Source: a virus
Lineage: Duplodnaviria; Heunggongvirae; Uroviricota; Caudoviricetes
IMG/VR virus record: IMGVR_UViG_3300012665_001805
Length of the DNA stretch: 64,000 nt
Reading direction: 5' to 3' (one strand)
Made by a program: the position numbers and the translations under genes. Every line of letters starts with the position of its first letter. Position 1 is the stretch's first letter. Positions 1,684 through 20,446 of the stretch are shown here, piece after piece. The notes under the pieces are model-generated. The model worked only from the letters and a program-made list of their open reading frames with translations, was not told where the DNA came from and did no database searches.

Positions 1684-2430
1684 TTAAGCAAAACTTTCAA
1701 CTAATGAAAACAGTTGTTGATTCAATCTGATATCTTCTTTCATGTTTGTAACATCATGTGTTAGGTTTTCCTGGATGCGATTGAATACAGTCCACAAATC
1801 ATTACTTTCATCTTCAACTCTATTAACTGCGAATAGATCATCAATATTGATTTTATCTAAATTATCATATCTCAAACGAGCTGCTTCAATAGCTAACTTA
1901 CGCATATCTTCAATTGATAATCCTTTATGTTTCATTTCATTTACTTCAGTTAGCAATTTATTTGCTTTACTATTCATTGAAGTAACAAAACGATCTAAAT
2001 CTCTATAGTTAATTTCAGTATGTTTGATTTTTTGTGATTCAGCTTGTTGATCAAATCTAATCATACCATTTGAACATACTTGACGGAACATACCTAAGCT
2101 CATTTGTAATGGTTGAGCTCCGTTACAGCTATTTGATAATGTAATTGAAGTAAACGCTTCGTGTTTACCTTGTTTGTTTTGTATAGCAAAATCAGGATGT
2201 TGTAGCTGAACATAGTTGTTTGATATTTTACGATTGCTACCTCGTTGTTCAGAAACTCCGCTTAATCTCCATCCTTCATCTTGTAGTTTTGTAACTAAAT
2301 CTAGTGTTGGGATATAAAATTCCTTTTGTTTAATACGTTGTACGTTTCGAATGTTATTGTTATCTAACGTGTTAGCAAATGCTATTGCTTTGTTTAAGTC
2401 ATTATCGACTTGAATAAATTTGTTTTTCAT
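1684..2430 (-). CDS. DUF932-like phage/plasmid protein (paralog B)
   Basis: 248 aa; shares GMFRQVCSNGMI core and overall collinearity with ORF 55..864. Confidence 0.45.
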   Translation of the reverse strand: MKNKFIQVDNDLNKAIAFANTLDNNNIRNVQRIKQKEFYIPTLDLVTKLQDEGWRLSGVSEQRGSNRKISNNYVQLQHPDFAIQNKQGKHEAFTSITLSNSCNGAQPLQMSLGMFRQVCSNGMIRFDQQAESQKIKHTEINYRDLDRFVTSMNSKANKLLTEVNEMKHKGLSIEDMRKLAIEAARLRYDNLDKINIDDLFAVNRVEDESNDLWTVFNRIQENLTHDVTNMKEDIRLNQQLFSLVESFA

Positions 2431-6553: not shown

Positions 6554-7705
6554 TTAGTGACTATCTCCTACGTTGTGTTTTTCTCCGTAAATTAAATAGT
6601 CTGGGTTAATTACTTTAGCTACTTTGTTTCGTTCTCCACTTATATGTTTGATAACAATCCCTTCATGTGGTACTTTAGTTCCTTCAATGAAGTTGTTGAA
6701 TACAAACTTGTCTTGGATTTCTTGTGACCATGATCCTTTATATAGTACTTCTACATATGGTAACTCTATAATGTATTTAATTGTATATTTTGATGATAAT
6801 ACTTCTACATATTTTCCATTTTGTACTAAATCAAATCCAACAAATTCCATATCTTTCAAACCATATTCATAGTTCTTTTGGATACCTGCTCCATAAATTT
6901 CCCCATAAATGATGATACCTGATCCAATATCTTCTGGGTTGGAGTAGTTGGTAACAAAATCCCAAAGTTTTTCTTTGATCTTATATTTCTCAGCAATTGT
7001 TCTCCAAACATCAGTTGAGTAAAAACCTTGTGAGTCAGATCCTTTTTCAACGTTATGTGAACCATAAACATATTCATATTCTGCCCATTCATTACCAAAG
7101 AATCGTCTTACTTTATCCCATAAAGACAATTTACTTTTCTTTACAATACCATAACGAGCATTTGTACCATGGATTTTACGAGTAATCTCAATGTGATCTT
7201 CACTTGTAAACATTCCTGTAACATTTTTCAAGTTAGGGAACTTGTAATACACTCCAAAGTTTTGGTTTTGGTGGTATTTGAATTTACGGCCTGAAGCTAA
7301 TTGGATTTGTACTGTAGGTGGTTCATATTTGAAGATACCTAAAACTTCCATCAAATCTTCCCCTTCTTTCCAGTAATAACCAATGCCTGTAGCATATTGC
7401 TTTTTCATTTGAGGTAAGCTATTAAAAGGAATAATCAAACACTCAGAATAAACACCTCGTAATTTCACTGTTCTTACACGTTGACCTTTACGTAGATAAT
7501 TAGTTACTCCAATTGAATCTGATATTTCTTGAGGGATAACAGCATCTGTTGTTGCTACAACAACATACTCACCTACGGTGTATTCTCCTTTTTTAACAAT
7601 AGCATTCCAACCACCAACAACTGCTAATTCAATATTGTCAGCACCTTCAATTACTTTTACTTCTGTTACGATTCCTACGTAACATACACTATTATTATTT
7701 TCCAT
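6554..7705 (-). CDS. RNA ligase, Rnl2 family, with N-terminal tRNA-binding OB-fold (Trbp111/CsaA-like) domain
   Basis: motif I RKIHGTNARYGIV (T4 Rnl2 EKIHGTNF), motif IYGEIYGAGIQKNYEYG vs Rnl2 VFGEFAGPGIQKNVDYG; first ~110 aa fit the tRNA-binding OB pattern VGxVxEVxxIxGADxIxLxxVxGG...GxYVVVA. Confidence 0.75.
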   Translation of the reverse strand: MENNNSVCYVGIVTEVKVIEGADNIELAVVGGWNAIVKKGEYTVGEYVVVATTDAVIPQEISDSIGVTNYLRKGQRVRTVKLRGVYSECLIIPFNSLPQMKKQYATGIGYYWKEGEDLMEVLGIFKYEPPTVQIQLASGRKFKYHQNQNFGVYYKFPNLKNVTGMFTSEDHIEITRKIHGTNARYGIVKKSKLSLWDKVRRFFGNEWAEYEYVYGSHNVEKGSDSQGFYSTDVWRTIAEKYKIKEKLWDFVTNYSNPEDIGSGIIIYGEIYGAGIQKNYEYGLKDMEFVGFDLVQNGKYVEVLSSKYTIKYIIELPYVEVLYKGSWSQEIQDKFVFNNFIEGTKVPHEGIVIKHISGERNKVAKVINPDYLIYGEKHNVGDSH

Positions 7706-7714
7706 TTCTTACAA

Positions 7715-7912
7715 TTATTTTAAATTATTAAATGCTTCTGTTAATTTTGCATAAATAAAATCTATTTCTTCCTGAGATTCTATGGGGAATGACTCAGTTG
7801 TATCAATCTTTAATTCCATCCATCCTTCTGTGTGGTGTATTTCAATATCAATAAAATCATCACCTTTTTGAATTGAAAAGGCATCCATGTTCATTTTAAT
7901 TCCTGTAGACAT
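7715..7912 (-). CDS. hypothetical protein
   Basis: 65 aa acidic. Confidence 0.25.
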   Translation of the reverse strand: MSTGIKMNMDAFSIQKGDDFIDIEIHHTEGWMELKIDTTESFPIESQEEIDFIYAKLTEAFNNLK

Positions 7913-7915
7913 TTT

Positions 7916-8299
7916 TTATAATTTTATTTCAAATCGGTTTTTCATTTGTTCTAATTTATCTGCTGGTACTCCATGCTGGTTTACCCCCTCATGGCGATTT
8001 TCAACTACAATGGAATGTACTCGATAATCATACTGTTCAGCTAATTTATAATAAGCTTCCATTTCCCATTCTTGAGTGAATGTATTTGATACAACTACGT
8101 TATATCCCCGTTTCATCCAACCCTTAGCTTGAAATTGACACCACTCATGAGCTTGTTTAAGTTTAGTAGGATCAAATTGATAAATTCCATTCACCACAAA
8201 AAACTCATCTGCCTCAACATGTTGATTACATATCAGTTTAGCTAATGTTGATTTACCACTACCTGGTAGCCCGCGAAGTAAGATTAGTTCTTTTTTCAT
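7916..8299 (-). CDS. P-loop polynucleotide 5'-kinase-like protein (T4 Pnk kinase-domain-like)
   Basis: LLRGLPGSGKSTLAKL Walker A at N-terminus as in T4 Pnk (IGCPGSGKST); 127 aa; adjacent to RNA ligase. Confidence 0.55.
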   Translation of the reverse strand: MKKELILLRGLPGSGKSTLAKLICNQHVEADEFFVVNGIYQFDPTKLKQAHEWCQFQAKGWMKRGYNVVVSNTFTQEWEMEAYYKLAEQYDYRVHSIVVENRHEGVNQHGVPADKLEQMKNRFEIKL

Positions 8300-9428: not shown

Positions 9429-9679
9429 TGTTCTTCTATATTATATAAACCTAATTCTTGATCTAATCTCATCATTTCGATGAGTGCTTGTTCGCGTTGC
9501 TCTTTTAAAGCGGCATCATAATCCTCTATACACATTGCTACTCTAATACCATCAATAGTACCAATTACTTCTTTATGAAGTCGATACTTGAATTGAAATG
9601 TTTTAAAGTTGATTTCAACTACTTTTTTATATGCATCTTGTCCCAAGACACGAATCATTACTGATTGTTTCATAACCAA
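9425..9679 (-). CDS. hypothetical protein
   Basis: 84 aa. Confidence 0.3.
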   Translation of the reverse strand: MVMKQSVMIRVLGQDAYKKVVEINFKTFQFKYRLHKEVIGTIDGIRVAMCIEDYDAALKEQREQALIEMMRLDQELGLYNIEEQ

Positions 9680-10377
9680 GTTATTTCATTTGTTATTGGA
9701 TCCCATTCAAATGTGAATGGTAAATTTGCATACATGTATCGTTCATTCAATACGGATGCATTAAAGAAATGTGTATGACCGTTGTAATAGTGACCATAAC
9801 CACCATGAACATGTCCAAATACGTGAATTTTTGGTTTAATTTCATCTATTCGATAACGCAACATTTCACATCCAACTCGTATGTTTTGTCCACCTGGGAT
9901 GTCTTGATAGCCAAATGGAGGTCCATGTGTTACTAAAATATCTGTATCAGTTGGGATAGCATCCCATTTTGCTTTTAATTCTTCTCCATTGCGAGGCAAA
10001 TTAAATGCCCAATTGAAAAATTCCGGTTGCCAAGGTGAACCATAGATTTTAGCAGTTTTTACATTTGGATCATGAGGATCACTATCTCCAACTACCATCC
10101 AATCATCCTGTAAATAATCAATTGTTTTATATCCAGTTAAGATACCTTGTGCCTCTTCTGGTTCATCTTCCATCCAACGATCATGGTTACCAGCAATCAG
10201 TACTTTGAAATCATAGGTAGATATTTTATCAAACCAATTGAAAAACTCCATTGCTTCCATTGGATTGTAACCCGAGTTCATAAAGTCACCAGCATGGATT
10301 AACAAATCACCTCCTGGTAAATCACCATTTAGTTGGTTGTGTTTTGTATGTGTATCTGAAATTAATGTAACCTTCAT
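9670..10377 (-). CDS. calcineurin-like metallophosphoesterase
   Basis: motifs D-x-H (ISDTHTKH), GDLLIHAGDF, GNHD, GHVHGG; 235 aa. Confidence 0.8.
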   Translation of the reverse strand: MKVTLISDTHTKHNQLNGDLPGGDLLIHAGDFMNSGYNPMEAMEFFNWFDKISTYDFKVLIAGNHDRWMEDEPEEAQGILTGYKTIDYLQDDWMVVGDSDPHDPNVKTAKIYGSPWQPEFFNWAFNLPRNGEELKAKWDAIPTDTDILVTHGPPFGYQDIPGGQNIRVGCEMLRYRIDEIKPKIHVFGHVHGGYGHYYNGHTHFFNASVLNERYMYANLPFTFEWDPITNEITWL

Positions 10378-10735: not shown

Positions 10736-10790
10736 ATAAAAAACCCCTAGCAGTTTCTATTGATCAGATAGTCTTACTAGGGGGTGTTAG
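10736..10790 (-). terminator. intrinsic terminator closing the tRNA array (minus sense CCCCTAG...CTAGGGG + TTTTTT)
   Basis: 7-bp GC-rich stem with internal palindrome TGATCA, followed on minus strand by T6. Confidence 0.5.
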
Positions 10791-10986
10791 TGGTTATATG
10801 GGTGTTTATAGAGGTAACGCGTTTACACCTATAAATCTTCCCAACTTCCCAATAACGAGAAGACCATCCAAGTGAGCAGATCTAACGGGATGCCCGATGG
10901 TACTGAGCCTACGTTATCTCAACGCAGGGGGGCATTCCATAGCAACCGTATCACTATGGGGTTCCGTTAACATGTAACGGTGGAGG

Positions 10987-11060
10987 TGGCCCATCCTGGA
11001 CTCGAACCAGGGACTTTCACATTATGAGTGTGCTACTCTAACCAACTGAGTTAAAAGGCC
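10987..11060 (-). tRNA. tRNA-Met (anticodon CAT)
   Basis: minus-strand cloverleaf; T-arm CCCTGG-TTCGAGT-CCAGG; anticodon loop CTCATAA. Confidence 0.6.
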
Positions 11061-11191
11061 ATAACATAATACAAGCTCCCACCTACCTTCTTGTATTTTG
11101 AACTCAACTCTGCCAGCAGTTCACCCGGTGCCACGATACTTAACTATCTGCACTCCCTCTGACAATGTTAAGTTGCCGTATGAGCCAGTCG

Positions 11192-11290
11192 TAGTCAGGA
11201 CAGGACTCGAACCTGTATGAGCTACTTCAATTACCTTGTAGGCTCTCCACTACGGTGCTTGTAGCGTCTAACCAATTCCGCCACCTGACT
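11192..11290 (-). tRNA. type-II tRNA-like (Leu-like D-arm TGGCGGAATTGGTTAGACGC), anticodon arm unresolved; 99 nt, possibly interrupted/pseudo
   Basis: perfect 7-bp acceptor AGTCAGG/CCTGACT, T-arm ACAGG-TTCGAGT-CCTGT; GCTAC...GTAGC flank a 35-nt insert-like segment. Confidence 0.4.
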
Positions 11291-11426
11291 ATTTTAAAAA
11301 TTAACTTACTAATTATAACCTATGCACGCTTGAGTTACAATCCCATTTACCCCAGTGAAACATTCGTACCTATTTTCACCCTCCTTATTGCCTATGTTCT
11401 TTTTCAGCTCCTCGGTTAATTGTAGT

Positions 11427-11499
11427 AGCGGGGGCCAGACTCGAACTGGCGGTCTCTGGGTTATGAGCCCAGCGAGTGAAACCATCTCCTCCACCCCGC
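11427..11499 (-). tRNA. tRNA-fMet initiator (CAT)
   Basis: GCGGGGTGGAG...GGGCTCATAACCC...CCCCCGC; near-identical architecture to bacterial initiator tRNA incl. three G-C pairs in the anticodon stem. Confidence 0.75.
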
Positions 11500-11507
11500 T
11501 ATATTTG

Positions 11508-11578
11508 ATTCTCATGAAGGATTCGAACCTTCGTCTGCCCGCTCAACGCGACCCGACTTACCACTTGTCCAATGAGAA
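11508..11578 (-). tRNA. tRNA, anticodon ambiguous (loop CGTTGAG, TTG/Gln-like)
   Basis: acceptor TTCTCAT/ATGAGAA, T-arm GAAGG-TTCGAAT-CCTTC; anticodon stem imperfect. Confidence 0.4.
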
Positions 11579-11676
11579 AACTGTTACACACTTTCATCGG
11601 CAAATTACTAATGCATATCAGACCCTTATAGTATTGGAAGCACTTGCCGGTACTTCACTTTCCTACCCAGGTTTTG

Positions 11677-11748
11677 TATTCGGTACGGGGTTCGAACCCG
11701 TGCCTCTGCCGTGAAAGGGCAGCGTGTTAACCACTTCACTAACCGAAC
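11677..11748 (-). tRNA. tRNA-Glu (TTC)
   Basis: anticodon arm CTGCC-CTTTCAC-GGCAG; T-arm ACGGG-TTCGAAC-CCCGT. Confidence 0.65.
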
Positions 11749-11870
11749 ATAAAAAACATAATACTACTTTAATAACGTTTACCCAATTTTACGACTGCAC
11801 GCTTTACCTTGTTAGACCGTTTTTTGGGTAACGACCCCTAACACATCCTACCTACCCATATTATGTTTTG

Positions 11871-11942
11871 CGGTCCATGCGAGAATCGAACTCGCGGCAC
11901 CACCGTGACAGGGTGGTATGTTAGCCACTACACCAATGGACC
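11871..11942 (-). tRNA. tRNA-Asp (GTC)
   Basis: anticodon arm CCACC-CTGTCAC-GGTGG; acceptor GGTCCAT/ATGGACC. Confidence 0.65.
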
Positions 11943-11948
11943 AGTGTG

Positions 11949-12022
11949 TGGAGGATAACGGATTCGAACCGTTGACCCCTGCAGTGCAAGTGCAGTGCTC
12001 TAGCCAGCTGAGCTAATCCCCC
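11949..12022 (-). tRNA. tRNA-Ala (TGC) with G3-U70
   Basis: GGGGGATTAGCTCAGCTGGCTAGAGCA...CTGCA-CTTGCAC-TGCAG; G3:U70 identity pair present. Confidence 0.7.
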
Positions 12023-12114
12023 ATTTAGTCTTTTCCTTACCTCTTAACAGCTCACATTGCCCGTCCGGTGTTACTGCCGGATGCTTACCTCTATGAGGAG
12101 TAACTGTTACATTG

Positions 12115-12188
12115 AGCAGGCAGTGGGACTCGAACCCACAACCCTCGCCTTGGAAGGGCGACGCTCTAGCCAATTGAGCTATGCCTGC
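12115..12188 (-). tRNA. tRNA-Gly (TCC)
   Basis: acceptor GCAGGCA/TGCCTGC; anticodon arm TCGCC-CTTCCAA-GGCGA. Confidence 0.7.
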
Positions 12189-12194
12189 AATTTG

Positions 12195-12276
12195 TACACA
12201 AGGAGAGACTCGAACTCTCACGCCTTTCGGCACCGGATCCTAAGTCCGGCGTGACTACCAATTCCACCACTCGTGC
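12195..12276 (-). tRNA. tRNA-Leu (TAG), type II
   Basis: D-arm GTGGAATTGGTAGTCAC, anticodon arm CCGGA-CTTAGGA-TCCGG, variable hairpin GCC-GAAA-GGC. Confidence 0.65.
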
Positions 12277-12284
12277 ATTTTAAA

Positions 12285-12304
12285 TTTCCAATATGTCAAT
12301 GAAC
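12285..12304 (-). promoter_or_regulatory. conserved 20-nt element (minus sense GTTCATTGACATATTGGAAA) 8 nt upstream of tRNA-Leu 5' end
   Basis: second copy at 13894-13913, 9 nt upstream of tRNA-Gln; contains TTGACA. Confidence 0.4.
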
Positions 12305-12324
12305 TTTCTTTTCTTATAAATTCA

Positions 12325-12334
12325 ATATACGAAA
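12325..12334 (-). promoter_or_regulatory. promoter-like motif TTCGTATATT upstream of tRNA-Leu(TAG) sub-cluster
   Basis: AATATACGAA on plus strand, ~50 nt upstream of tRNA 5' end. Confidence 0.45.
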
Positions 12335-12361
12335 AATATATTGGAAAGCCAAGTTTTTATG

Positions 12362-12431
12362 AGCTCAAGGTAAGAATCGAACTTACTCTATAGGTTTTGC
12401 AGACCTACCGGCCTCCAAGACCATCCTGAGC
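12362..12431 (-). tRNA. tRNA-Cys (GCA)
   Basis: anticodon arm TAGGT-CTGCAAA-ACCTA; T-arm GTAAG-TTCGATT-CTTAC. Confidence 0.55.
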
Positions 12432-12437
12432 ATTGTG

Positions 12438-12510
12438 TGGACAGAGAGGGGTTCGAACCCCCGACGCTCGGCTCTTCAGGCCGACGCTCTACCAACTGAG
12501 CTACCTGTCC
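12438..12510 (-). tRNA. tRNA-Phe (GAA)
   Basis: D-arm TAGCTCAGTTGGTAGAGC; anticodon arm TCGGC-CTGAAGA-GCCGA. Confidence 0.7.
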
Positions 12511-12569
12511 TGGCCTTTTTTAGGGTTTTTAACTAGAACCCAAGGACGGAACGACCTATAAACTATTTG

Positions 12570-12641
12570 CGCGACCCCAAGGACTCGAACCCTGACCAAC
12601 GGATTTGGAATCCGTTATGCTACCAATTACACCAAAGAAGC
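12570..12641 (-). tRNA. tRNA-Trp (CCA)-like; acceptor stem does not pair as read (possible pseudo/aberrant)
   Basis: anticodon arm ACGGA-TTCCAAA-TCCGT and Trp-like D-arm GTGTAATTGGTAGCAT, T-loop TTCGAGT; 5' GCTTCTT vs 3' GGGTCGC mismatched. Confidence 0.35.
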
Positions 12642-12678
12642 AATTCATCCGACCTAGCTCGGATCACACATCGGATCG

Positions 12679-12751
12679 TACCCCCACAGAGATTCAAACT
12701 CCAATCTTCCCCTTAGAAGGGGGATGTTCTATTCAATTGAACTATAAGGGC
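12679..12751 (-). tRNA. tRNA-Arg (TCT)
   Basis: D-arm GTTC-AATTGAATA-GAAC; anticodon arm TCCCC-CTTCTAA-GGGGA; acceptor with three G-U pairs. Confidence 0.55.
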
Positions 12752-12756
12752 ATTTG

Positions 12757-12829
12757 TACCCTCAAAGTGACTCGAACACCTATCTCTCGGTTCGTAGCCG
12801 AGCGTTCTATCCATTGAACTATGTGGGCA
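12757..12829 (-). tRNA. tRNA-Arg (ACG)
   Basis: anticodon arm CTCGG-CTACGAA-CCGAG; D-arm TAGTTCAATGGATAGAAC. Confidence 0.6.
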
Positions 12830-12833
12830 GTTG

Positions 12834-12917
12834 TACCTCGAGCCGGGATCGAACCGGCACGCCCATACGAGCACAGGATTTTAAGTCCGGCGTGACTACC
12901 AATTCCACCACCGAGGC
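12834..12917 (-). tRNA. tRNA-Leu (TAA), type II
   Basis: Leu-like D-arm GTGGAATTGGTAGTCAC; anticodon loop CTTAAAA; long variable arm; T-arm GCCGG-TTCGATC-CCGGC. Confidence 0.6.
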
Positions 12918-12925
12918 ATTTGTTG

Positions 12926-12999
12926 GGTGTATGGTGAGATTTGAACCCACGACCTCTTGATTCACAATCAAGCACTCTTACCAACTGAGCTACATACAC
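12926..12999 (-). tRNA. tRNA-His (GTG)
   Basis: acceptor GTGTATG/CATACAC; anticodon arm CTTGA-TTGTGAA-TCAAG; T-loop TTCAAAT. Confidence 0.65.
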
Positions 13000-13001
13000 A
13001 G

Positions 13002-13073
13002 TACCGTATGTTGGGTTCGAACCAACCCAAAGCAGGATATGAGCCCACCTCGTCCACCTAGGACCTACGGTAT
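13002..13073 (-). tRNA. tRNA with CAT anticodon (elongator Met or Ile2/lysidine type)
   Basis: anticodon arm GTGGG-CTCATAT-CCTGC; T-arm GTTGG-TTCGAAC-CCAAC; third CAT tRNA in the array. Confidence 0.5.
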
Positions 13074-13077
13074 AAAG

Positions 13078-13162
13078 CGGAAAGCAGTGAACACGATCCA
13101 CATACCTTTCAGTACCACTCGCTTAGCAGGCGGTGACAGCACCCTGACTGCTTTACTTTCCA
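13078..13162 (-). tRNA. tRNA-Ser (GCT)-like, type II, non-canonical T-arm
   Basis: acceptor GGAAAGT/GCTTTCC, anticodon loop CTGCTAA, variable arm TACTGAAAGGTATG shared with tRNA-Ser(TGA); T-loop lacks TTCGA. Confidence 0.4.
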
Positions 13163-13167
13163 ATTGT

Positions 13168-13241
13168 GCGCTTAACTGGACTCGAACCAATAACCTTCCG
13201 CGTATCAGGCGGATGCTCTAACCAATTGAGCTATAAACGCA
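13168..13241 (-). tRNA. tRNA-Ile (GAT)
   Basis: anticodon arm TCCGC-CTGATAC-GCGGA; D-arm TAGCTCAATTGGTTAGAGC. Confidence 0.65.
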
Positions 13242-13247
13242 TTAAGC

Positions 13248-13318
13248 GGACCAGGGAGGGATCGAACCTCCGACCCAGCGATTAACAGTCGCTTGCTCTA
13301 CCTCTGAGCTACTGGTCC
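13248..13318 (-). tRNA. tRNA-Asn (GTT)
   Basis: acceptor GGACCAG/CTGGTCC; anticodon arm AGCGA-CTGTTAA-TCGCT. Confidence 0.7.
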
Positions 13319-13323
13319 AATTG

Positions 13324-13406
13324 TGGGGCTTGGTGGACTCGAACCACTCCCGATTAAGGACAGGATTTACAGTCCCGCTGCCGTATCCGAACGACTTTCA
13401 ATCCCC
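13324..13406 (-). tRNA. tRNA-Tyr (GTA), type II
   Basis: anticodon arm CGGGA-CTGTAAA-TCCTG; long variable arm; T-loop TTCGAGT. Confidence 0.55.
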
Positions 13407-13412
13407 TTTTTG

Positions 13413-13485
13413 TACACCCTCTAGGATTCGAACCTAGGACATTTTGCATGTAAAACAAACGCTCTACCAACTGAGCTAAAGGTGC
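13413..13485 (-). tRNA. tRNA-Val (TAC)
   Basis: D-arm TAGCTCAGTTGGTAGAGC; anticodon arm TTTGT-TTTACAT-GCAAA; T-arm CTAGG-TTCGAAT-CCTAG. Confidence 0.55.
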
Positions 13486-13490
13486 ATTTG

Positions 13491-13565
13491 TGATCCCGGT
13501 GGGGCTCGAACCCACGACTCCCTAATTAAAAGTTAGGTGCTCTAAACCAACTGAGCTACGAGATC
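13491..13565 (-). tRNA. tRNA-Lys (TTT)
   Basis: anticodon arm CCTAA-CTTTTAA-TTAGG; T-arm GTGGG-TTCGAGC-CCCAC. Confidence 0.7.
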
Positions 13566-13635
13566 TTTCTGTTTGCGACTCTTGTCGCTCTTATCACTTT
13601 CCATAATTTCTCGTTTTTTTATGGTGAATAAATAG

Positions 13636-13709
13636 TCTAAGTGGCAGGGCTCGAACCTGCGATCTCGTGGTCCCAAACCACGCGGATTACCAACTTTCCC
13701 ACACCTAGT
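13636..13709 (-). tRNA. tRNA-Pro (TGG)
   Basis: C1-G72 acceptor CTAGGTG/CACTTAG; anticodon arm CGTGG-TTTGGGA-CCACG. Confidence 0.65.
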
Positions 13710-13714
13710 TAAAA

Positions 13715-13800
13715 TGGCGGAAGGCGTAGGACTCGAACCCACAATACCTTTCAGTACTACTGCTTTTCAAGAGCAGCTCCTCATCCAGCCGGATGCCTTC
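13715..13800 (-). tRNA. tRNA-Ser (TGA), type II, CCA encoded
   Basis: acceptor GGAAGGC/GCCTTCC perfect, discriminator G then CCA; anticodon arm CTGCT-CTTGAAA-AGCAG; long variable arm. Confidence 0.65.
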
Positions 13801-13810
13801 CATTTTATTG

Positions 13811-13884
13811 ATCCCCCGGGAGGAGTCGAACCTCCAAACTCCACAGTCAAAGTGTGGTGACTTTGCCAATTCGTCTACAGGGGA
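13811..13884 (-). tRNA. tRNA-Gln (TTG)
   Basis: anticodon arm CCACA-CTTTGAC-TGTGG; T-arm GGAGG-TTCGACT-CCTCC. Confidence 0.55.
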
Positions 13885-13893
13885 ATTTATAGC

Positions 13894-13913
13894 TTTCCAA
13901 TATGTCAAAGAAC
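13894..13913 (-). promoter_or_regulatory. second copy of conserved 20-nt element (minus sense GTTCTTTGACATATTGGAAA) immediately upstream of tRNA-Gln
   Basis: 19/20 identical to 12285-12304. Confidence 0.4.
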
Positions 13914-13924
13914 GTTTTCTTCTG

Positions 13925-13996
13925 AGCTCCGTACCAGATTCGAACTGATTTCTCTTGATTACAAGTCAAGCGCATCGCCAACAATGCTTACAGAGC
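13925..13996 (-). tRNA. tRNA-Thr (TGT)
   Basis: anticodon arm CTTGA-CTTGTAA-TCAAG; T-arm ATCAG-TTCGAAT-CTGGT. Confidence 0.6.
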
Positions 13997-14020: not shown

Positions 14021-14052
14021 AAAAACCCGGATCTTGCGAACCCGGGTTATAT
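14021..14052 (-). terminator. intrinsic terminator upstream (minus sense) of tRNA array: CCCGGG-TTCGCAAGAT-CCGGG + T7
   Basis: plus strand AAAAAAACCCGGATCTTGCGAACCCGGG. Confidence 0.55.
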
Positions 14053-14417: not shown

Positions 14418-14876
14418 CTATTTCACTAATCCAAGCTCTTTTTCAATTTCTTTCATATGCTTGCATTTTTTATCTTTTGCTCTCCATCTACCAGGACAAT
14501 CACAAGTTAATCCTCTTGGGGTCATTTTTACAACATATGTACCACCTCCACTTGATGATTCAAACTTCCATGTTTGTGATGGTGGTTTTACTTCAGGTGA
14601 TTTCTCAACTACCTTTGGTCTATCATCTATTTCAATAATATCATCTAATGTTGTTTTAGGATGACATTCTACATGCGCTGGCATAATGACATATCGTTCT
14701 CCAAGTTTTGCAATTGCAACACATAAATAAGCATGTTTTTTTACTTTATACTTAAATGGTCTGCAATGACAAAATGTAATATTGTCACGTTTAGGATAAA
14801 TTTTAGCTTCATCGTTTGGTACTATACGGGTTTCTTTTCTCCCATCACCATATTCTATAATTAACTCCTTTAACAT
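14418..14876 (-). CDS. SWIM zinc-finger protein
   Basis: C-terminal CxC-x(n)-CxH: LTCDCPGRWRAKDKKCKHM; promoter motif at 14894-14903. Confidence 0.5.
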   Translation of the reverse strand: MLKELIIEYGDGRKETRIVPNDEAKIYPKRDNITFCHCRPFKYKVKKHAYLCVAIAKLGERYVIMPAHVECHPKTTLDDIIEIDDRPKVVEKSPEVKPPSQTWKFESSSGGGTYVVKMTPRGLTCDCPGRWRAKDKKCKHMKEIEKELGLVK

Positions 14877-16910: not shown

Positions 16911-18083
16911 TTAATTTTTAATAAGCTCTTGTTGATATTCTATTAAACTAATTATCTCTATGGTAAATATGTCTAACTCAAATTTTCCTACCTCTCCACT
17001 TTCTTGTATAATGCTAGGCATTTGCATTAATAATTGGAAATTTTGTTGGGTCAATTGGTTAGCATCAAATTCAATTATAATGTCGTTTTCACTAATTGGG
17101 TCATTGTTATTTAAAGTAAATACTCGTTTTAATAAATTAAATGATGTATTTTCTTGTTCTCGATCTATATAAATATCAACTATATCTTGATTTTCAATAT
17201 AAATGCGATCACACCATGGTTCTAAAGCAGTTAATAATTGACCCGGGCAATTTTTTACCACGTAAGCAATGTTATATTTGGGTGCAACGATAGGTTCCAT
17301 TAAAGCGGTATGATTCACGTTTGAACCCCATTTACGAATAAATTCTAACGTAGATTTATCCATATCTTTTCTCCACTGTTCATGTCTTTCTTTATCACCA
17401 TCAAAACTACCTGCTCCTCTACCTGTTAAATGATATACTAATGAATTCCAAGGTTGAATAAATTCAAAACCATTTAATTTCATTCGATTAAATACATCCG
17501 AATCTTCTCTACACGAGTGCATAATTGGATCATGTCCACCCATTTCTAAGAATTCTTCTTTATACATCATCCAAGGGGCAAAAATACCATTTGTAATTTT
17601 ATCATCATCGGAATGTTCTTCTACATATTGATCAAATTCATCTTTTTTAAATTCTTCAGGATACATTCCAAAATCAATTAAGATTTTTTCTCCATTATTT
17701 GGGTGTAAAGGTGGTTCGATACGAGTAGCACATATTACTCTTTTTGATTTTAGATGATTATATGCTTTCCAATCTGCATTTTTACCTAACATCATATCAG
17801 CATGGAATATCATGAATACATCTGTTGTTGAATGTTCAATACAGTAATCATATGCTTTTCCAATTCCAAATAAACTTTCACCTAAATTTGGATTAACAAA
17901 ATATTTTAAATTATACTCATCTTTTACTTGCTCTAACCATTCAACTGTTCCATCTTCATCTGAATCAACGAAAACTATAATTTCATGGTCTTTTCTATAT
18001 GCATTTTCTCTAATAGAGGGGATACAAGTTTTAAGGTATCTTAAATTTGATTTACTGGGGATACAGAATGTTATTTGTTTCAT
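16911..18083 (-). CDS. family-2 (GT-A fold) glycosyltransferase
   Basis: N-terminal FCIPSKSNLRYLKTCIPSI...EIIVFVDSDEDGT typical GT2 signature; 390 aa. Confidence 0.6.
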   Translation of the reverse strand: MKQITFCIPSKSNLRYLKTCIPSIRENAYRKDHEIIVFVDSDEDGTVEWLEQVKDEYNLKYFVNPNLGESLFGIGKAYDYCIEHSTTDVFMIFHADMMLGKNADWKAYNHLKSKRVICATRIEPPLHPNNGEKILIDFGMYPEEFKKDEFDQYVEEHSDDDKITNGIFAPWMMYKEEFLEMGGHDPIMHSCREDSDVFNRMKLNGFEFIQPWNSLVYHLTGRGAGSFDGDKERHEQWRKDMDKSTLEFIRKWGSNVNHTALMEPIVAPKYNIAYVVKNCPGQLLTALEPWCDRIYIENQDIVDIYIDREQENTSFNLLKRVFTLNNNDPISENDIIIEFDANQLTQQNFQLLMQMPSIIQESGEVGKFELDIFTIEIISLIEYQQELIKN

Positions 18084-18757
18084 ATTTGAGAATAAGTTAT
18101 TTCTTGTTTAATAATGTTATATTTGTAAAGTAATTCTACCATTTCATCCCAAGGTTGTCTTGGAAAATGTGAATAATCTTGTCCTACTGGTTTAGTGTGG
18201 GTCATGATTATATCATCTATAATGGCGATTTTATCTTGAGGATAACCAAGTAAATGGGCCCATAAATAATCAAATCCCCAACTTGAATAATTTTCATCAA
18301 ATGTTTCGTATACTTTTAATAATGTATCCAAATTAAACATAGGTGCTAATACCTCTACAAAATTAGTATATCGTAATAAACTATTTTTAACAGGTTTAGT
18401 TATTTCATGAGACACATATCCATCCATTGATGGTTGACATATACTTAAATTTCTTTCTTTAGCAAAATCAAACAATCGATTTATTTCACTCGTAGATATT
18501 TTTACGTCATCATCAGGAAGCCAAATATGAGAATATTGTGAGATAAATTCTAAATTATCTTGAATGAATGCTTTAATAAGGGAAAATTTAGTTCCTTTAG
18601 CTGAGTATACGTGTGGGGTATATTTAAGATATGATATAGGAGTGTTAATGTCGTCTCCATAGTATAAGAATACTATATCAAAATTTGGTTCTTGTTGGAG
18701 CCATGTTTCACAAATAGATTTATCTCCTAAGGGTGATATGATTAAATATTTATCCAT
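18080..18757 (-). CDS. hypothetical protein in glycosylation island
   Basis: 225 aa, translationally coupled to flanking genes. Confidence 0.3.
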   Translation of the reverse strand: MDKYLIISPLGDKSICETWLQQEPNFDIVFLYYGDDINTPISYLKYTPHVYSAKGTKFSLIKAFIQDNLEFISQYSHIWLPDDDVKISTSEINRLFDFAKERNLSICQPSMDGYVSHEITKPVKNSLLRYTNFVEVLAPMFNLDTLLKVYETFDENYSSWGFDYLWAHLLGYPQDKIAIIDDIIMTHTKPVGQDYSHFPRQPWDEMVELLYKYNIIKQEITYSQI

Positions 18758-18759
18758 TC

Positions 18760-19551
18760 TTAAATTTCTATGATTTGACTTTCAGGGTATGGAAAATGAC
18801 ATATTCCTTCAATCATTATGTTTTTATGACTACAGTCATGTATAACGTTATCCTTTATAACTTGAAGAAGTATACGATATTTTTCTAATGGAATCAAGTG
18901 TAATTTTGATAAATCATTTCTTTCTACACAATTTTTTAATAAATCCTCACATGACCATCCTTTAATATACTCCCATATTCTTCCATTATAATCAGGAATG
19001 GTTTGAATATATTCATAGGTTTCATCTAAAAATGTTTTATCATTAAGAAAATCTGTTTTAGATACATTAATGAAATAAAAATTTGTTTGTGGATAAAATG
19101 CTTCCTCAATAATTCGTTCAAAATCAAAATCAAAAGGAACCATACCACCATATCCAACTCCATTCATATAATAAAAATCAGCATCACCAACTTCTTTTTC
19201 TAAAATAGAATCTTGAAAAACAACATCATTTGCTCCTTTACAAAGCCATTCTTCATTGTTTTCTTTACACCAATCAAAAATCAAATTATCTAGATCAGTA
19301 TAACCATGGTTATGACCTCGATTTAATTCTGAGTCTATTATGATGCAATCAGGAAAATATTTTTTCCATAATTTAGAATTTTCATTTTGAAATGGTAAAC
19401 CATAATTAGTAGCTACAGCAATTTGTTTAAATTCCTTTAAAACAGGTAAATTATAGAGAATATATGATTCTAACAAATCAATATCATCTTGAGATTTAAT
19501 GTACCCTATTGTACCATAAACCGATTTATTTATTAATTCCTTTAAGAGCAT
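18760..19551 (-). CDS. hypothetical protein in glycosylation island
   Basis: 263 aa. Confidence 0.3.
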   Translation of the reverse strand: MLLKELINKSVYGTIGYIKSQDDIDLLESYILYNLPVLKEFKQIAVATNYGLPFQNENSKLWKKYFPDCIIIDSELNRGHNHGYTDLDNLIFDWCKENNEEWLCKGANDVVFQDSILEKEVGDADFYYMNGVGYGGMVPFDFDFERIIEEAFYPQTNFYFINVSKTDFLNDKTFLDETYEYIQTIPDYNGRIWEYIKGWSCEDLLKNCVERNDLSKLHLIPLEKYRILLQVIKDNVIHDCSHKNIMIEGICHFPYPESQIIEI

Positions 19552-20272
19552 CGTTTAATTTATTTACATTCATTGTTGTATTTCCAGGGGTTTCTGGTGT
19601 TCTAAATGCTACCTCTACTGGAGTGGTTTGGGAAGCTAATTCAAATATGGTTTTTGGTTTAGTCCCTATATTGAATAGTCCAGTATTATTATTTTTTACT
19701 AATTGGATAATAAAATTAGACATAACATCTACATAATCAAAATTACCTGTTTGATCAATCCAAGCTTTATTATATGGGAATGGATTTGGTTTATGTGTTC
19801 CTCTACAAATTAGGTAATTATTTGATTTTAATTCAATATACGCATCACCTAATAATTTAGTATATGAATACCAGTTATTACCATGGATTGGAATATCATT
19901 TTCTGATGCTTCATTTATTGAATTGGTGTAAACATAATCTGTGGATACATGAACTAACTTAATATTCCATAGGTTACAAAAATCAGTTAAATCAGCTATA
20001 CCTTTATAATTTACATTCCAATGTTCTTCTTTACTATTTGAGTAAGTATTTGTATTAGCTATACAATTTAGTATAACATTATATTTAAAAGAAACAGCTA
20101 CTCCATCAAATACATCCATAAAATAATGGAAAAACTTATCGGGTTGGGTTATATCAAATCCATTTTCTTTCCTTGATATAATATCCCAACCCGTTTGTTT
20201 TTGGATTTCTGTTCCTAATAACCCGTTTCCTAAAATTACTACATTCATCCTTCCGAAAATACTTCTATACAA
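19526..20272 (-). CDS. NAD(P)-dependent sugar-nucleotide reductase/epimerase (RmlD-like)
   Basis: N-terminal Rossmann VVILGNGLLG; catalytic YxxxK (YSYTKLLGD). Confidence 0.5.
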   Translation of the reverse strand: MYRSIFGRMNVVILGNGLLGTEIQKQTGWDIISRKENGFDITQPDKFFHYFMDVFDGVAVSFKYNVILNCIANTNTYSNSKEEHWNVNYKGIADLTDFCNLWNIKLVHVSTDYVYTNSINEASENDIPIHGNNWYSYTKLLGDAYIELKSNNYLICRGTHKPNPFPYNKAWIDQTGNFDYVDVMSNFIIQLVKNNNTGLFNIGTKPKTIFELASQTTPVEVAFRTPETPGNTTMNVNKLNDALKGINK

Positions 20273-20446
20273 AGTACATTTTTATCATTTATTAAAATCA
20301 TTCTACCATCTTCAGTAGTTAACTTAGTAAATTGACCTTGTTTGATATACTCAGATCTAATATTTTCAAAGGTTCGTTTTTCACCACCTACAAAGTGGAT
20401 TATTTGAGTTACTACTTTACCTTGTTTTTTAATACTAGATTGTAAA

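What the first reader, a model, noticed from the sequence alone, without database searches (positions are those of the whole stretch)
10987..13996. Array of ~27 tRNA genes covering all 20 amino acids, including three CAT-anticodon tRNAs
The cloverleafs identified by eye (all minus strand) give Met/fMet/CAT-3, Glu, Asp, Ala (with G3:U70), Gly, Leu(TAG), Leu(TAA), Cys, Phe, Trp-like, Arg(TCT), Arg(ACG), His, Ser(GCT)-like, Ser(TGA), Ile(GAT), Asn, Tyr, Val, Lys, Pro, Gln and Thr, plus two unresolved ones. A complete amino-acid set in a 3-kb block bounded by intrinsic terminators (10736-10790 and 14021-14052) suggests strong codon-usage independence from the host or a counter-defence against tRNA-targeting nucleases. 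Only tRNA-Ser(TGA) encodes CCA.
Basis: seen in the sequence. Interest (0 to 1): 0.65.

Follow-up and report, generated by a model that had tools for sequence, protein, structure and literature searches.

The report
Phage tRNA island with tRNA mimics
An uncultured large phage carries a 3-kb island of 25 tRNA genes that between them can read practically every codon the phage uses, which is a known kind of phage feature; the same island also holds tRNA-shaped RNAs without a working anticodon and a structured RNA, and these match no described RNA family.

Summary
ARAGORN finds 25 tRNA genes, all on the minus strand at 10985-13996 and none elsewhere in the 64 kb. All 20 amino acids are covered, there are three CAT anticodons, and only Ser(UGA) encodes CCA. 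The Rfam covariance model passes 20 canonical genes.

The 23 anticodons plus three CAU species give one tRNA per codon box. They can read 60 of 61 sense codons; the unread CGG is 3 of 16,880 phage codons.

The genome is a roughly 170-kb PolB/GroEL phage with no close cultured relative. The array sits in a conserved slot that holds only 0-6 tRNAs in 14 relatives of equal GC, so it is an accessory island. My preferred reading is a self-sufficient tRNA pool that insulates phage translation from host tRNA loss. This is inferred, not shown.

Two "tRNAs" are probably not decoders. One (11507-11578) has G33. The other (11191-11290) has a tRNA-Leu-like acceptor, D and T arms but no anticodon arm, and belongs to a family of at least 232 variants with hypervariable middles.

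A covariation-supported RNA with a 145-nt conserved core ends the island.

As a tRNA array this is a new member of a known kind.

The parts
14024..14048 (-). Intrinsic terminator-like hairpin plus T-run, 27 nt upstream of the first tRNA. It ends the upstream small ORF.
   Evidence: 10-bp stem, 5 GC pairs, T-run
13924..13996 (-). tRNA-Thr(UGU)
   Evidence: 52.5 bits
13894..13908 (-). Repeated box TTGACATATTGGAAA, copy 1, just before tRNA-Gln. Its role is unknown.
   Evidence: (family D20)
13810..13884 (-). tRNA-Gln(UUG)
   Evidence: 59.8 bits
13715..13801 (-). tRNA-Ser(UGA), class II, G73. It is the only gene with an encoded CCA.
   Evidence: the best Rfam hit is to the tRNA-Sec model at 37.9 bits
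13635..13708 (-). tRNA-Pro(UGG)
   Evidence: 60.8 bits
13490..13565 (-). tRNA-Lys(UUU)
   Evidence: 69.2 bits
13412..13485 (-). tRNA-Val(UAC)
   Evidence: 69.0 bits
13323..13406 (-). tRNA-Tyr(GUA), class II, A73, with an A5.G68 mismatch.
   Evidence: no Rfam hit; homologue L133 has a fully paired acceptor stem
13246..13318 (-). tRNA-Asn(GUU)
   Evidence: 70.5 bits
13166..13240 (-). tRNA-Ile(GAU)
   Evidence: 72.0 bits
13077..13161 (-). Atypical tRNA-Ser(GCU): a 3-bp anticodon stem plus 2 mismatches, G73, and T-loop AUCGUGU.
   Evidence: ARAGORN finds it only at lowered threshold; conserved in 5 contigs with compensatory changes in the acceptor and T stems
13001..13071 (-). Third tRNA(CAU) with a short D arm. 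It is either elongator Met or Ile2; this is unresolved.
   Evidence: Rfam gives only 19.3 bits; 98.6% identical in L005
12925..12999 (-). tRNA-His(GUG) with C73 but T at position -1, so no G-1 is encoded.
   Evidence: (71.1 bits)
12833..12917 (-). tRNA-Leu(UAA)
   Evidence: 47.0 bits
12756..12828 (-). tRNA-Arg(ACG)
   Evidence: 60.4 bits
12678..12751 (-). tRNA-Arg(UCU)
   Evidence: 55.7 bits
12569..12641 (-). tRNA-Trp(CCA), G73, with two acceptor-stem mismatches (3:70 and 4:69).
   Evidence: (45.8 bits); relatives are paired at these positions
12437..12510 (-). tRNA-Phe(GAA)
   Evidence: 67.3 bits
12361..12431 (-). tRNA-Cys(GCA), U73, with a short D loop.
   Evidence: Rfam 24 bits; 100% identical in L005
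12324..12352 (-). Internal promoter-like site TTGGCT-17-TATATT containing the phage's recurrent TTTCGTATAT motif.
   Evidence: same motif upstream of many ORFs in the window; 34 matches against 17 expected
12285..12299 (-). Repeated box TTGACATATTGGAAA, copy 2, just before tRNA-Leu(UAG). It is the inverted partner of TTTCCAATAT at about 12345.
12194..12276 (-). tRNA-Leu(UAG)
   Evidence: 53.3 bits
12114..12188 (-). tRNA-Gly(UCC)
   Evidence: 72.4 bits
11948..12022 (-). tRNA-Ala(UGC) with G3:U70.
   Evidence: (67.8 bits)
11870..11942 (-). tRNA-Asp(GUC)
   Evidence: 62.1 bits
11676..11748 (-). tRNA-Glu(UUC). This is the tRNA most often kept in relatives' slots.
   Evidence: (68.8 bits)
11507..11578 (-). 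tRNA-shaped gene called 'Gln(UUG)', with anticodon loop CGUUGAG (G33 instead of U33) and a mismatched anticodon stem. Probably not a decoder.
   Evidence: no Rfam hit; no homologue in 269 loci, and absent from the otherwise collinear array of L005; related phage tRNA-Gln genes all have U33
11425..11500 (-). Initiator-type tRNA(CAU): GGG/CCC in the anticodon stem, A11:U24, and a weak A1:U72 pair.
   Evidence: (59.4 bits)
11312..11340 (-). Best sigma-70-like match in the region (TTGTAA-17-TATAAT, 10 of 12), 22 nt upstream of the tRNA-frame RNA.
11191..11290 (-). tRNA-frame RNA. It has acceptor stem AGUCAGG/CCUGACU, a tRNA-Leu-type D arm, T arm and A73. Two hairpins replace the anticodon and variable arms, and there is no anticodon loop.
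   Evidence: the model skips the anticodon arm; family shown
11061..11190 (-). Conserved GC-rich spacer, 89-96% identical in L008, L033 and L025. Possibly a further small RNA.
10985..11060 (-). tRNA(CAU), a candidate tRNA-Ile2 (lysidine) for AUA, or an elongator Met.
   Evidence: (61.0 bits); AUA is 283 codons in the phage ORFs; the isotype was not tested
10791..10984 (-). Conserved structured 'tail RNA'. The core is 10791-10934, preceded by variable 5' hairpins, and it ends ...UAUAACCA.
   Evidence: 96.9% of cells paired; 17 of 36 pairs with compensatory change; 24 loci, one copy each; no Rfam hit
10738..10783 (-). Intrinsic terminator closing the island.
9670..10377 (-). Flanking gene: MPPED2-like binuclear metallophosphoesterase. 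It is the conserved downstream border of the tRNA slot.
7916..8299 (-). Nearby gene: small P-loop kinase (AAA_33), adjacent to the RNA ligase in relatives.
6554..7705 (-). Nearby gene: RNA ligase with an N-terminal OB domain, of the Naegleria NgrRnl type.

Best explanation
This is an accessory tRNA island of a large uncultured phage.

It encodes 25 tRNA genes, one for each codon box or half-box: 7 UNN for four-codon boxes, ACG for CGN, 8 GNN, 5 UNN for purine-ending pairs, CCA, and three CAU species. Together they form a minimal self-sufficient decoding set matched to the phage's own A/U-ending codons.

The genes are transcribed from phage promoters, including at least one inside the island, as closely packed polycistronic precursors. 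Host RNase P and 3' processing enzymes cut out the tRNAs. Host CCA-adding enzyme then completes them, because 24 of the 25 lack an encoded CCA.

The most likely benefit is that phage translation continues whatever happens to the host tRNA pool. The pool could be lost through shut-off or degradation during infection, or through cleavage by host anticodon nucleases. On this reading the island acts as pool replacement rather than as a top-up of a few rare codons.

Shown here: the genes, their anticodons, the codon coverage, the accessory nature of the island, and the neighbouring genes. Inferred: expression, processing, charging and the selective benefit.
For: The genes are real and clustered.

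The window is phage: PolB, clamp loader, GroEL, thymidylate synthase and lysis enzymes, with more than 150 IMG/VR relatives.

The anticodon set covers 60 of 61 sense codons, and the uncovered CGG is 3 of 16,880 codons. The UNN anticodons pair directly with the commonest NNA codon in six of the seven four-codon boxes. GC3 is 0.21.

There is no redundancy apart from the CAU species and the aberrant second 'Gln'.

A nearly identical array in the same order occurs in a second contig, L005, so it is a heritable unit.

Fourteen relatives share both flanking genes and the same GC (0.30-0.33) but hold only 0-6 tRNAs in the slot. Codon bias of the lineage alone therefore does not explain a 25-gene set.

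A promoter of the phage's own recurrent type lies inside the island.

An NgrRnl-type RNA ligase and a P-loop kinase, linked to each other in relatives, lie 3-4 kb away, and a metallophosphoesterase borders the slot.

Published work shows that phage tRNAs can rescue infection from tRNA-cleaving defences (PMC10264068, PMC11464382, PMC11555353).
Against: The host is unknown. No codon-usage comparison, host tRNA set or host nuclease could be examined.

There are no expression or charging data.

Several members look weakened, which argues against strong selection on every gene:
- Trp has two acceptor-stem mismatches.
- His has lost its encoded G-1.
- Tyr has an A.G mismatch.
- Five or six genes fall below the Rfam threshold.

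Close relatives manage with 0-6 tRNAs.

Reading of NNC and NNU codons by U34 in four-codon boxes depends on the modification state, which is unknown.

The RNA-repair reading of the neighbours is weak. The ligase is not an Rnl1-type tRNA ligase. The phosphoesterase is closest to a cyclic-nucleotide phosphodiesterase.
Confidence: 0.55

Rival explanations
1. Classical codon compensation. The phage genome (33% GC, GC3 0.21) uses A/U-ending codons more than its host does. The island tops up the matching tRNAs so that highly expressed late genes are translated faster.
For: Every four-codon-box tRNA has U34, complementary to NNA codons. NNA is the most used codon in six of the seven boxes (Gly GGU, at 0.50, exceeds GGA, at 0.41). 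The island supplies Leu(UAA), Lys(UUU), Glu(UUC) and Gln(UUG), which read codons making up 57-92% of their families. This is the most widely accepted view of phage tRNAs (PMC10264068 introduction; PMC6409571).
Against: The set is complete, not selective. It includes tRNAs for codons that any host must read well, such as Trp and Met. Relatives with the same GC carry 0-6 tRNAs in the same slot. Contigs that share island elements are binned mostly with Bacteroidota, many of which are themselves low in GC. That evidence is weak.
Confidence: 0.25
2. The island is mostly a passenger. It would be a recombination hot spot where tRNA genes and tRNA-like cassettes are gained, swapped and lost nearly neutrally. 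The 27-gene state would then be a transient expansion, with several members already decaying.
For: Slot content varies widely among relatives, from 0 to 22 tRNAs. Single units are replaced between otherwise collinear arrays: the Tyr allele, the frame interiors, and the presence or absence of the G33 'Gln'. Several members carry defects.
Against: Exactly one gene per codon box, with no gaps and almost no duplicates, is not what random accretion predicts. The tRNAs are 94-100% identical between two contigs while the spacers differ. The weak-looking members show compensatory changes across contigs.
Confidence: 0.1
3. The island is chiefly an expression and processing platform for non-tRNA RNAs: the tRNA-frame RNA, the tail RNA and the conserved spacers. 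On this view the tRNAs serve as punctuation for RNase P and RNase Z.
For: About 640 nt at the 3' end of the island (10791-11424) is mostly conserved non-tRNA RNA. In relatives with few tRNAs the frames and the tail RNA are still present in the slot.
Against: It does not explain why the tRNAs form a complete decoding set. The two roles are compatible rather than exclusive.
Confidence: 0.1

Closest known systems
Phage tRNA gene clusters (for example T5, KVP40, Cellulophaga phage phi4:1 and cluster C/M mycobacteriophages; survey in PMC6409571)
   Same: It is a dense, same-strand cluster in a large lytic-type phage. At 9 genes per kb it falls in the surveyed range of about 2-10 per kb, and its size falls in the surveyed range of 15-37 genes. 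It covers all 20 isotypes, as 8 of the surveyed clusters do. It lacks encoded CCA. The best, though weak, DNA matches are to the Cellulophaga phi4:1 cluster, at 76% over 7% of the query.
   Different: No close sequence relative exists among 50,697 phage records. The set is strictly one gene per codon box. The island shares its slot with non-tRNA RNAs. In sister genomes the slot is nearly empty.
Phage tRNAs as counter-defence against tRNA-cleaving systems (T5 against PrrC, VapC and retron effectors, PMC10264068 and PMC11555353; T5 tRNA-Lys against PARIS, PMC11464382), and the T4 Pnkp/Rnl1 tRNA repair pathway (from general knowledge)
   Same: A broad tRNA repertoire could replace cleaved host tRNAs. 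RNA ligase and kinase genes lie nearby.
   Different: No nuclease, no host tRNA and no anticodon-loop comparison were available. The ligase is of the NgrRnl type, which seals nicks, and is not Rnl1. The kinase is a 127-aa AAA_33 protein. The phosphoesterase resembles MPPED2.
Engineered tRNA scaffolds (PMC3753655), and natural tRNA-like modules such as bacterial YrlA Y RNAs (PMC4201824), MHV68 tRNA-like genes (cited in PMC6409571) and T4 stable RNAs C and D in its tRNA region (from memory)
   Same: The RNA at 11191-11290 keeps the acceptor stem, D arm, T arm and elbow of a tRNA and carries unrelated sequence where the anticodon arm should be. This is the design used in recombinant tRNA scaffolds.
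   Different: It is a natural, phage-encoded, multi-copy family with at least 162 unrelated interiors and a nearly fixed tRNA-Leu-type frame. In YrlA the tRNA-like module is internal and the RNA ends lie in the Ro-binding stem. Rfam has no dedicated family for these elements; they score only 31-41 bits on the general tRNA model.
GOLLD and ROOL RNAs, large structured RNAs often encoded near phage tRNA islands (PMC12286853)
   Same: The tail RNA is a conserved structured non-coding RNA of unknown function that sits inside a phage tRNA island.
   Different: It is much smaller, with a core of about 145 nt. It has no match to GOLLD, ROOL or any other Rfam model even at E = 10.

Membership tests
Viral tRNA gene cluster (definition of PMC6409571) | At least 15 tRNA genes at a density of at least 2 per kb | tested here: met
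   There are 25 genes by default ARAGORN, or 27 with the two extra calls, in 3,012 nt. That is 8.3-9.0 per kb.
Viral tRNA gene cluster (definition of PMC6409571) | Located in a virus genome | tested here: met
   Phage gene content. Relatives are IMG/VR viral contigs of up to 187 kb. All ORFs lie on one strand.
Canonical tRNA (Rfam RF00005) | Covariance-model score at or above the gathering score, with all four arms aligned | tested here: met
   Met for 20 genes, at 45.8-72.4 bits. Not met for Cys (24 bits), Ser(UGA), Tyr, Ser(GCU), the third CAU gene and the G33 'Gln'.
Canonical tRNA (Rfam RF00005), applied to 11191-11290 | Anticodon arm with a 7-nt loop, U33 and purine 37 | tested here: not met
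   The model aligns the acceptor, D and T arms but skips its 17 anticodon-arm positions against a 36-nt insert. The first hairpin loop is AAGCACC.
Canonical tRNA, applied to 11507-11578 ('Gln') | U33 and a paired anticodon stem | tested here: not met
   The loop is CGUUGAG with G33. The stem has a G.G mismatch. Seven related phage tRNA-Gln genes all have U33.
Bacterial initiator tRNA, applied to 11425-11500 | Three consecutive G:C pairs at 29-31:39-41, A11:U24, and no strong 1:72 pair | tested here: met
   GGG/CCC and A11:U24 are visible. The 1:72 pair is A:U, which is weak, rather than the C.A mismatch of E. coli. The feature list is from general knowledge.
tRNA-Ile2 (lysidine CAU), applied to 10985-11060 or 13001-13071 | Recognition by TilS and IleRS rather than MetRS | not testable with these tools
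   No isotype-specific model was available. The assignment rests only on the need for an AUA reader, since AUA occurs 283 times.
RNA healing-and-sealing repair system (T4 Pnkp + Rnl1, or bacterial Pnkp/Hen1) | 5'-OH polynucleotide kinase, 2',3'-phosphate-removing esterase and RNA ligase acting together on broken tRNA | tested here: inconclusive
   Domains of all three kinds are present: RNA_ligase plus OB fold matching NgrRnl at E = 6.5e-13, AAA_33, and a metallophosphoesterase. The ligase and kinase are adjacent in relatives. However, the esterase is closest to MPPED2, and no activities can be tested.
GOLLD / ROOL / any Rfam family, applied to 10791-10984 and the spacers | Covariance-model match | tested here: not met
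   No hit with E up to 10 apart from tRNAs.
Bacterial tRNA-Leu identity set (PMC9976931), applied to the tRNA-frame family | A73, U8:A14, A15:U48, G18G19 and an intact D-loop/T-loop elbow; the anticodon and variable arms are dispensable | tested here: met
   The figures come from the 49 family members found through a protein query, so without pattern bias. A73 occurs in 45, a U48-equivalent T in 43, U8 in 45, and a Leu-type D arm in 32. A D hairpin with GG occurs in 192 of 232 members against 63 expected. Charging itself was not tested.

The most novel reading that the evidence does not exclude
The 100-nt gene at 11191-11290 may represent an undescribed class of phage RNA: natural tRNA scaffolds.

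These RNAs keep a nearly invariant tRNA-Leu-type top half. That top half comprises acceptor stem AGUCAGG/CCUGACU, A73, U8, a D arm with G18G19, a U48 equivalent and the T arm. Those are the parts sufficient in E. coli for processing and for leucylation of anticodon-less tRNA-Leu (PMC9976931).

The anticodon and variable arms are replaced by hypervariable payloads of about 20-150 nt. These payloads fall into many unrelated but individually conserved subfamilies, some with compensatory changes. They are swapped between otherwise near-identical phages.

These RNAs would be made, trimmed, CCA-tailed and perhaps leucylated like tRNAs. They would act outside decoding, for example as stable decoys, aptamers or regulators in phage-host conflict.
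Probability: 0.45. Interest if true: 0.75.

Novelty: new member of a known kind. Interest (0 to 1): 0.45.

Why it matters
As a tRNA array it adds a clean example from an uncultured freshwater-type phage lineage: a strictly non-redundant set with one tRNA per codon box. Sister genomes with the same flanks and the same GC carry almost no tRNAs. That natural contrast is what is needed to separate 'codon compensation' from 'pool replacement or counter-defence', a question open for about 50 years (PMC10264068).

The by-products may matter more. Hundreds of tRNA-framed RNAs with interchangeable interiors, and a covariation-supported structured RNA (145-nt conserved core), show that phage 'tRNA islands' also act as nurseries for non-decoding RNAs. 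Standard pipelines would label these as odd tRNAs or miss them.

Tried and rejected
- **Close relatives among cultured phages.** Megablast found none. Blastn found only scattered tRNA-to-tRNA matches of 76% or less. The best DNA polymerase match was 32% identical.
- **Bacterial origin of the array.** Rejected on gene content and on the IMG/VR relatives.
- **Suppressor tRNAs, an alternative genetic code, or tmRNA.** There are no CUA, UCA or UUA anticodons and no tmRNA. ORFs are long under table 11.
- **An intron-containing tRNA at 11191-11290.** ARAGORN -i proposes Cys(ACA) with a 19-nt intron, and also a spurious 1,231-nt 'intron'. I rejected this because family members range from 55 to 190 nt with no common mature anticodon arm.
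- **Frame interiors as antisense guides to phage genes.** No matches outside other frames in 2.45 Mb of related DNA.
- **A shared motif in the interiors.** None found.
- **Generally strong folding of the interiors.** Mean z was only -0.36.
- **The frame as a copy of a host tRNA.** The exact 3' half occurs in no isolate genome. It occurs in only 17 MAG contigs that themselves look like phage.
- **GOLLD, ROOL or another Rfam family for the spacers.** No hits.
- **A sigma-70 promoter reading of the TTGACATATTGGAAA box.** The spacing is wrong, and the predicted start would fall inside the tRNA.
- **One script timed out and was rerun**.

Full report

Yes. ARAGORN finds 25 tRNA genes in the 64-kb window. 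All lie on the minus strand between 10985 and 13996, and none lie anywhere else.

The Rfam tRNA covariance model independently passes 20 of them at 45.8-72.4 bits. It also passes a 99-nt element at 11192-11290 that ARAGORN missed. With a lowered threshold ARAGORN adds a Ser(GCU)-like gene at 13077-13161.

GC content rises to 0.41-0.48 across the block, against 0.27-0.37 elsewhere.

All 20 amino acids are represented, and three genes have a CAT anticodon. Ala has G3:U70. Only Ser(UGA) carries CCA after its discriminator; the others end 'discriminator + C' followed by a short A-rich linker. Sixteen of the 26 junctions are 8 nt or shorter.

Both bounding terminators exist: 14048-14024, and 10783-10744 plus U6.

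**2. How many are good tRNAs?**

Twenty are solid by both methods. The rest divide as follows.
- Cys scores 24 bits. It has U73 and is 100% identical in a second contig.
- Ser(UGA) has G73 and an encoded CCA.
- Tyr has A73. It gets no Rfam hit, but a homologue in L133 has a fully paired acceptor stem reached through compensatory changes.
- Ser(GCU) has an atypical anticodon stem and T loop. It is conserved in five contigs, with compensatory changes in the acceptor and T stems.
- The third CAU gene scores only 19.3 bits but is 98.6% identical in L005.

I accept these five as probable tRNAs, which gives 25 decoders.

Some carry blemishes. Trp has two adjacent acceptor-stem mismatches where relatives are paired. 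His has T at position -1, whereas six of eight related phage His genes encode the G-1 that pairs with C73.

Of the CAU genes, 11425-11500 has the initiator hallmarks: GGG/CCC in the anticodon stem, A11:U24 and a weak A1:U72 pair. Which of the other two is elongator Met and which, if either, is the lysidine-dependent Ile2 could not be tested.

**3. Two members are not ordinary tRNAs.**

The gene at 11507-11578, called Gln(UUG), has the loop CGUUGAG with G33 and a mismatched stem. It has no Rfam hit and no homologue in 269 fetched loci. It is missing from the otherwise collinear array of L005. Seven related tRNA-Gln genes all keep U33.

The gene at 11191-11290 aligns to the tRNA model only in its acceptor, D and T arms. 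The model's 17 anticodon-arm positions are skipped against a 36-nt insert. The element has two hairpins there, and neither has an anticodon-type loop.

**4. What genome is this?**

All large ORFs are on the minus strand. They include a family-B DNA polymerase, a clamp-loader ATPase, a PD-(D/E)XK nuclease, GroEL, thymidylate synthase, lysis-type glycosidases, a block of sugar-modifying enzymes and a 7-deazaguanine pathway (FolE, QueD, QueE, QueC).

There is no near DNA match among 50,697 phage records. The best polymerase match is 32% identical.

More than 150 IMG/VR contigs, some of 170-187 kb, encode the neighbouring phosphoesterase at 57-81% identity. The window therefore comes from a large uncultured phage lineage.

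Contigs carrying one of the island's elements are binned mainly with Bacteroidota MAGs: Chitinophagia, Sediminibacterium, Saprospiraceae and Flavobacterium. This is only a hint about the host.

**5. The island is accessory.**

The array lies between homologues of ORF 14418-14876 and the phosphoesterase gene 9670-10377, and this arrangement is conserved in relatives. In 14 relatives with both flanks, the slot is 0.9-9.3 kb long and holds 0-6 tRNAs, at the same genomic GC of 0.30-0.33. Across 56 relatives the nearby tRNA count ranges from 0 to 22.

One contig, L005, carries the same array in the same order, with 89-100% identity per tRNA. It differs in three ways: a different Tyr allele, no G33 'Gln', and three tRNA-frame elements where the window has one.

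The island is therefore heritable, but it is remodelled one cassette at a time.

**6. What the anticodon set says.**

From 73 ORFs (16,880 codons, GC3 0.21), the 23 distinct anticodons plus the CAU species give one tRNA for every codon box or half-box:
- U34 in the seven four-codon boxes;
- ACG for CGN;
- G34 for the eight pyrimidine pairs;
- U34 for the five purine pairs;
- CCA;
- the three CAU species.

Sixty of the 61 sense codons are readable. The exception, CGG, occurs 3 times. The U34 anticodons pair directly with NNA, the most used codon in six of the seven boxes; Gly GGU exceeds GGA.

A complete, non-redundant set looks like a replacement translation pool rather than a supplement for a few rare codons. 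Combined with section 5, I favour insulation from loss of host tRNAs, whether through shut-off or through anticodon nucleases. Published work shows that phage tRNAs can do this (PMC10264068, PMC11464382, PMC11555353). Codon compensation remains a serious rival, because the host is unknown.

**7. Expression signals.**

A motif of the form cTTGG-N17-(T)TCGTATAT recurs on the minus strand upstream of many ORFs: 34 matches to the core against 17 expected. One copy (12352-12324) lies inside the island, before Leu(UAG). The best sigma-70-like match in the region (11340-11312) precedes the tRNA-frame gene. The island is therefore not a single simple transcription unit.

**8. Neighbours.**

An RNA ligase with an N-terminal OB domain matches Naegleria RNA ligase at E = 6.5e-13. 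A 127-aa AAA_33 kinase lies next to it. The two lie 3-4 kb from the island and are adjacent to each other in relatives.

The phosphoesterase bordering the slot is closest to MPPED2, at E = 9e-43. This trio resembles an RNA healing-and-sealing kit, but membership in the T4-type tRNA repair pathway is inconclusive.

**9. The tRNA-frame family.**

This was followed up because one of the 27 belongs to it.

The ends of 11191-11290 recur in relatives with completely different middles. It also occurs in 17 MAG contigs but in no isolate genome.

In 205 loci I found 232 distinct versions of 55-190 nt, with up to 9 per locus. Only 35 are called tRNAs by ARAGORN, and those calls have scattered 'anticodons'. 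Rfam scores them 31-41 bits on the general tRNA model and nothing else.

The interiors fall into 162 groups among 201 sequences. They share no motif. They match nothing else in the related DNA. As a whole they are not unusually stable.

Within subfamilies, however, they are conserved and show compensatory changes, for example TGTGA/TCACA to TGAGA/TCTCA and GTTGAA/TTCAAC to GAGCAA/TTGCTC. The window's own interior recurs almost unchanged in three other contigs.

The frame keeps what bacterial LeuRS needs. Among 49 members found without pattern bias, 45 have A73, 45 have U8, 43 have a U48 equivalent and 32 have a Leu-type D arm. A D hairpin with GG is present in 192 of 232 members against 63 expected, with many covarying stems.

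In E. coli, tRNA-Leu lacking both the anticodon arm and the variable arm is still leucylated, provided A73 and the D/T-loop contacts are intact (PMC9976931). A few members still look like true tRNA-Leu(UAA).

My reading is that a phage tRNA-Leu lineage has been turned into a natural tRNA scaffold for diverse payloads. I found no description of such a family, but the literature search is limited. Part of the data set was ascertained with the exact 3' half, so the invariance of that half is partly by construction.

**10. The tail RNA.**

The 194 nt between the last tRNA and the terminator are conserved in about 20 relatives. An alignment of 19 sequences gives a four-domain fold in which 96.9% of cells are paired, against 33-45% when partners are slid. 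Seventeen of the 36 pairs show changes on both sides, against 1-6 in the slid controls. No shuffle reaches the observed covariation.

A profile of the 145-nt core (10791-10934) finds one copy in each of 24 loci, in or next to the tRNA slot in the loci where it could be placed. No Rfam model matches.

Other spacers are also conserved in a few contigs: 11061-11190, 11291-11424, 11579-11675, 12023-12113 and 13566-13634. Structured RNAs near phage tRNA islands have precedent in GOLLD and ROOL (PMC12286853), but this RNA is neither of them.

**11. Verdict.**

The finding is real and accurately described. As a tRNA array it is a new member of a well-known kind.

The functional interpretation is reasonable but untested. 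My preference is pool replacement or insurance (0.55), over codon compensation (0.25).

The less ordinary content is that the island also houses non-decoding tRNA mimics and a new structured RNA.

Noticed in passing
window 11191-11290 (-); also L005 2700-3348, L092, L026, L033, L059 and many other loci: This is a family of tRNA-framed RNAs. The acceptor stem, T arm and A73 are nearly invariant, the D arm is mostly of tRNA-Leu type, and the interiors are hypervariable (55-190 nt in total). There are 232 distinct versions in 205 loci. More than 120 IMG/VR stretches carry the 3' half.
   Followed up: yes
window 10791-10984 (-), core 10791-10934: A conserved structured RNA lies at the 3' end of the island, ending ...UAUAACCA. 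It has strong covariation, occurs as one copy in each of 24 related loci, and matches no Rfam family.
   Followed up: yes
window 11061-11190, 11291-11424, 11579-11675, 12023-12113, 13566-13634 (-): These are GC-rich non-tRNA spacers, conserved at 80-96% in one to three other contigs. In L025, L033 and L008 the 11061-11190 element directly abuts the tail RNA, without the intervening tRNA. They may be further small RNAs.
   Followed up: partly
window minus strand, motif 5' ends at 905, 1661, 2606, 3469, 3758, 9118, 10498, 12334, 14269, 14904, 39890, 52021: A promoter-like motif cTTGG-N17-(T)TCGTATAT recurs upstream of ORFs, often right after a hairpin. It is probably the phage's main (early?) promoter class.
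   Followed up: partly
window 12285-12299 and 13894-13908 (-); inverse copies TTTCCAATAT near 12345 and 10508: The box TTGACATATTGGAAA occurs twice, immediately before a tRNA, and its inverted partner overlaps two promoter spacers. It may be an operator or processing signal. The exact 15-mer occurs only twice in the window; matches allowing 3 mismatches are not enriched.
   Followed up: partly
window 12925-12999 (-) and L005 1110-1183: tRNA-His has C73 but T at -1, so no G-1 is encoded. Six of eight related phage His genes have G at -1. The change coincides with the third CAU gene abutting His with a 1-nt gap.
   Followed up: partly
window 6554-8299 and 9670-10377 (-): An NgrRnl-type RNA ligase, a small AAA_33 kinase and an MPPED2-like metallophosphoesterase lie here. 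They could form an RNA repair kit. Alternatively, the esterase could be a cyclic-nucleotide hydrolase.
   Followed up: partly
window 44391-49556 (-): This stretch encodes FolE, a phosphoribosyltransferase, a radical-SAM protein (QueE-like), QueD and QueC, a preQ0/7-deazaguanine pathway. It could modify phage DNA or supply queuosine. The island encodes all four Q-family tRNAs (Asp, Asn, His, Tyr).
   Followed up: no
window 16911-31979 (-): This is a low-GC block (0.27-0.30) of glycosyltransferases, an aminotransferase, an RmlD-like reductase and a DUF707 protein. It appears to be a sugar-modification island.
   Followed up: no
window 55-864 and 1684-2430 (-): Two DUF932 paralogues lie here. Their homologues are the window proteins most often found near tRNA-frame elements in other contigs (15 loci each).
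   Followed up: no
window 37567-39204 and 59750-60787 (-): The window encodes a phage GroEL and a protein with a C-type lectin fold. No reverse transcriptase was seen nearby.
   Followed up: no
L014 17615, L015 7682, L023 7184, L029 10102, L041 17364: A 74-nt subfamily of the frames has a normal-looking anticodon arm but G33. Its 'anticodon' varies among CTT, TTT and ATT between phages. The window's odd 'Gln' shares the same G33 oddity.
   Followed up: no
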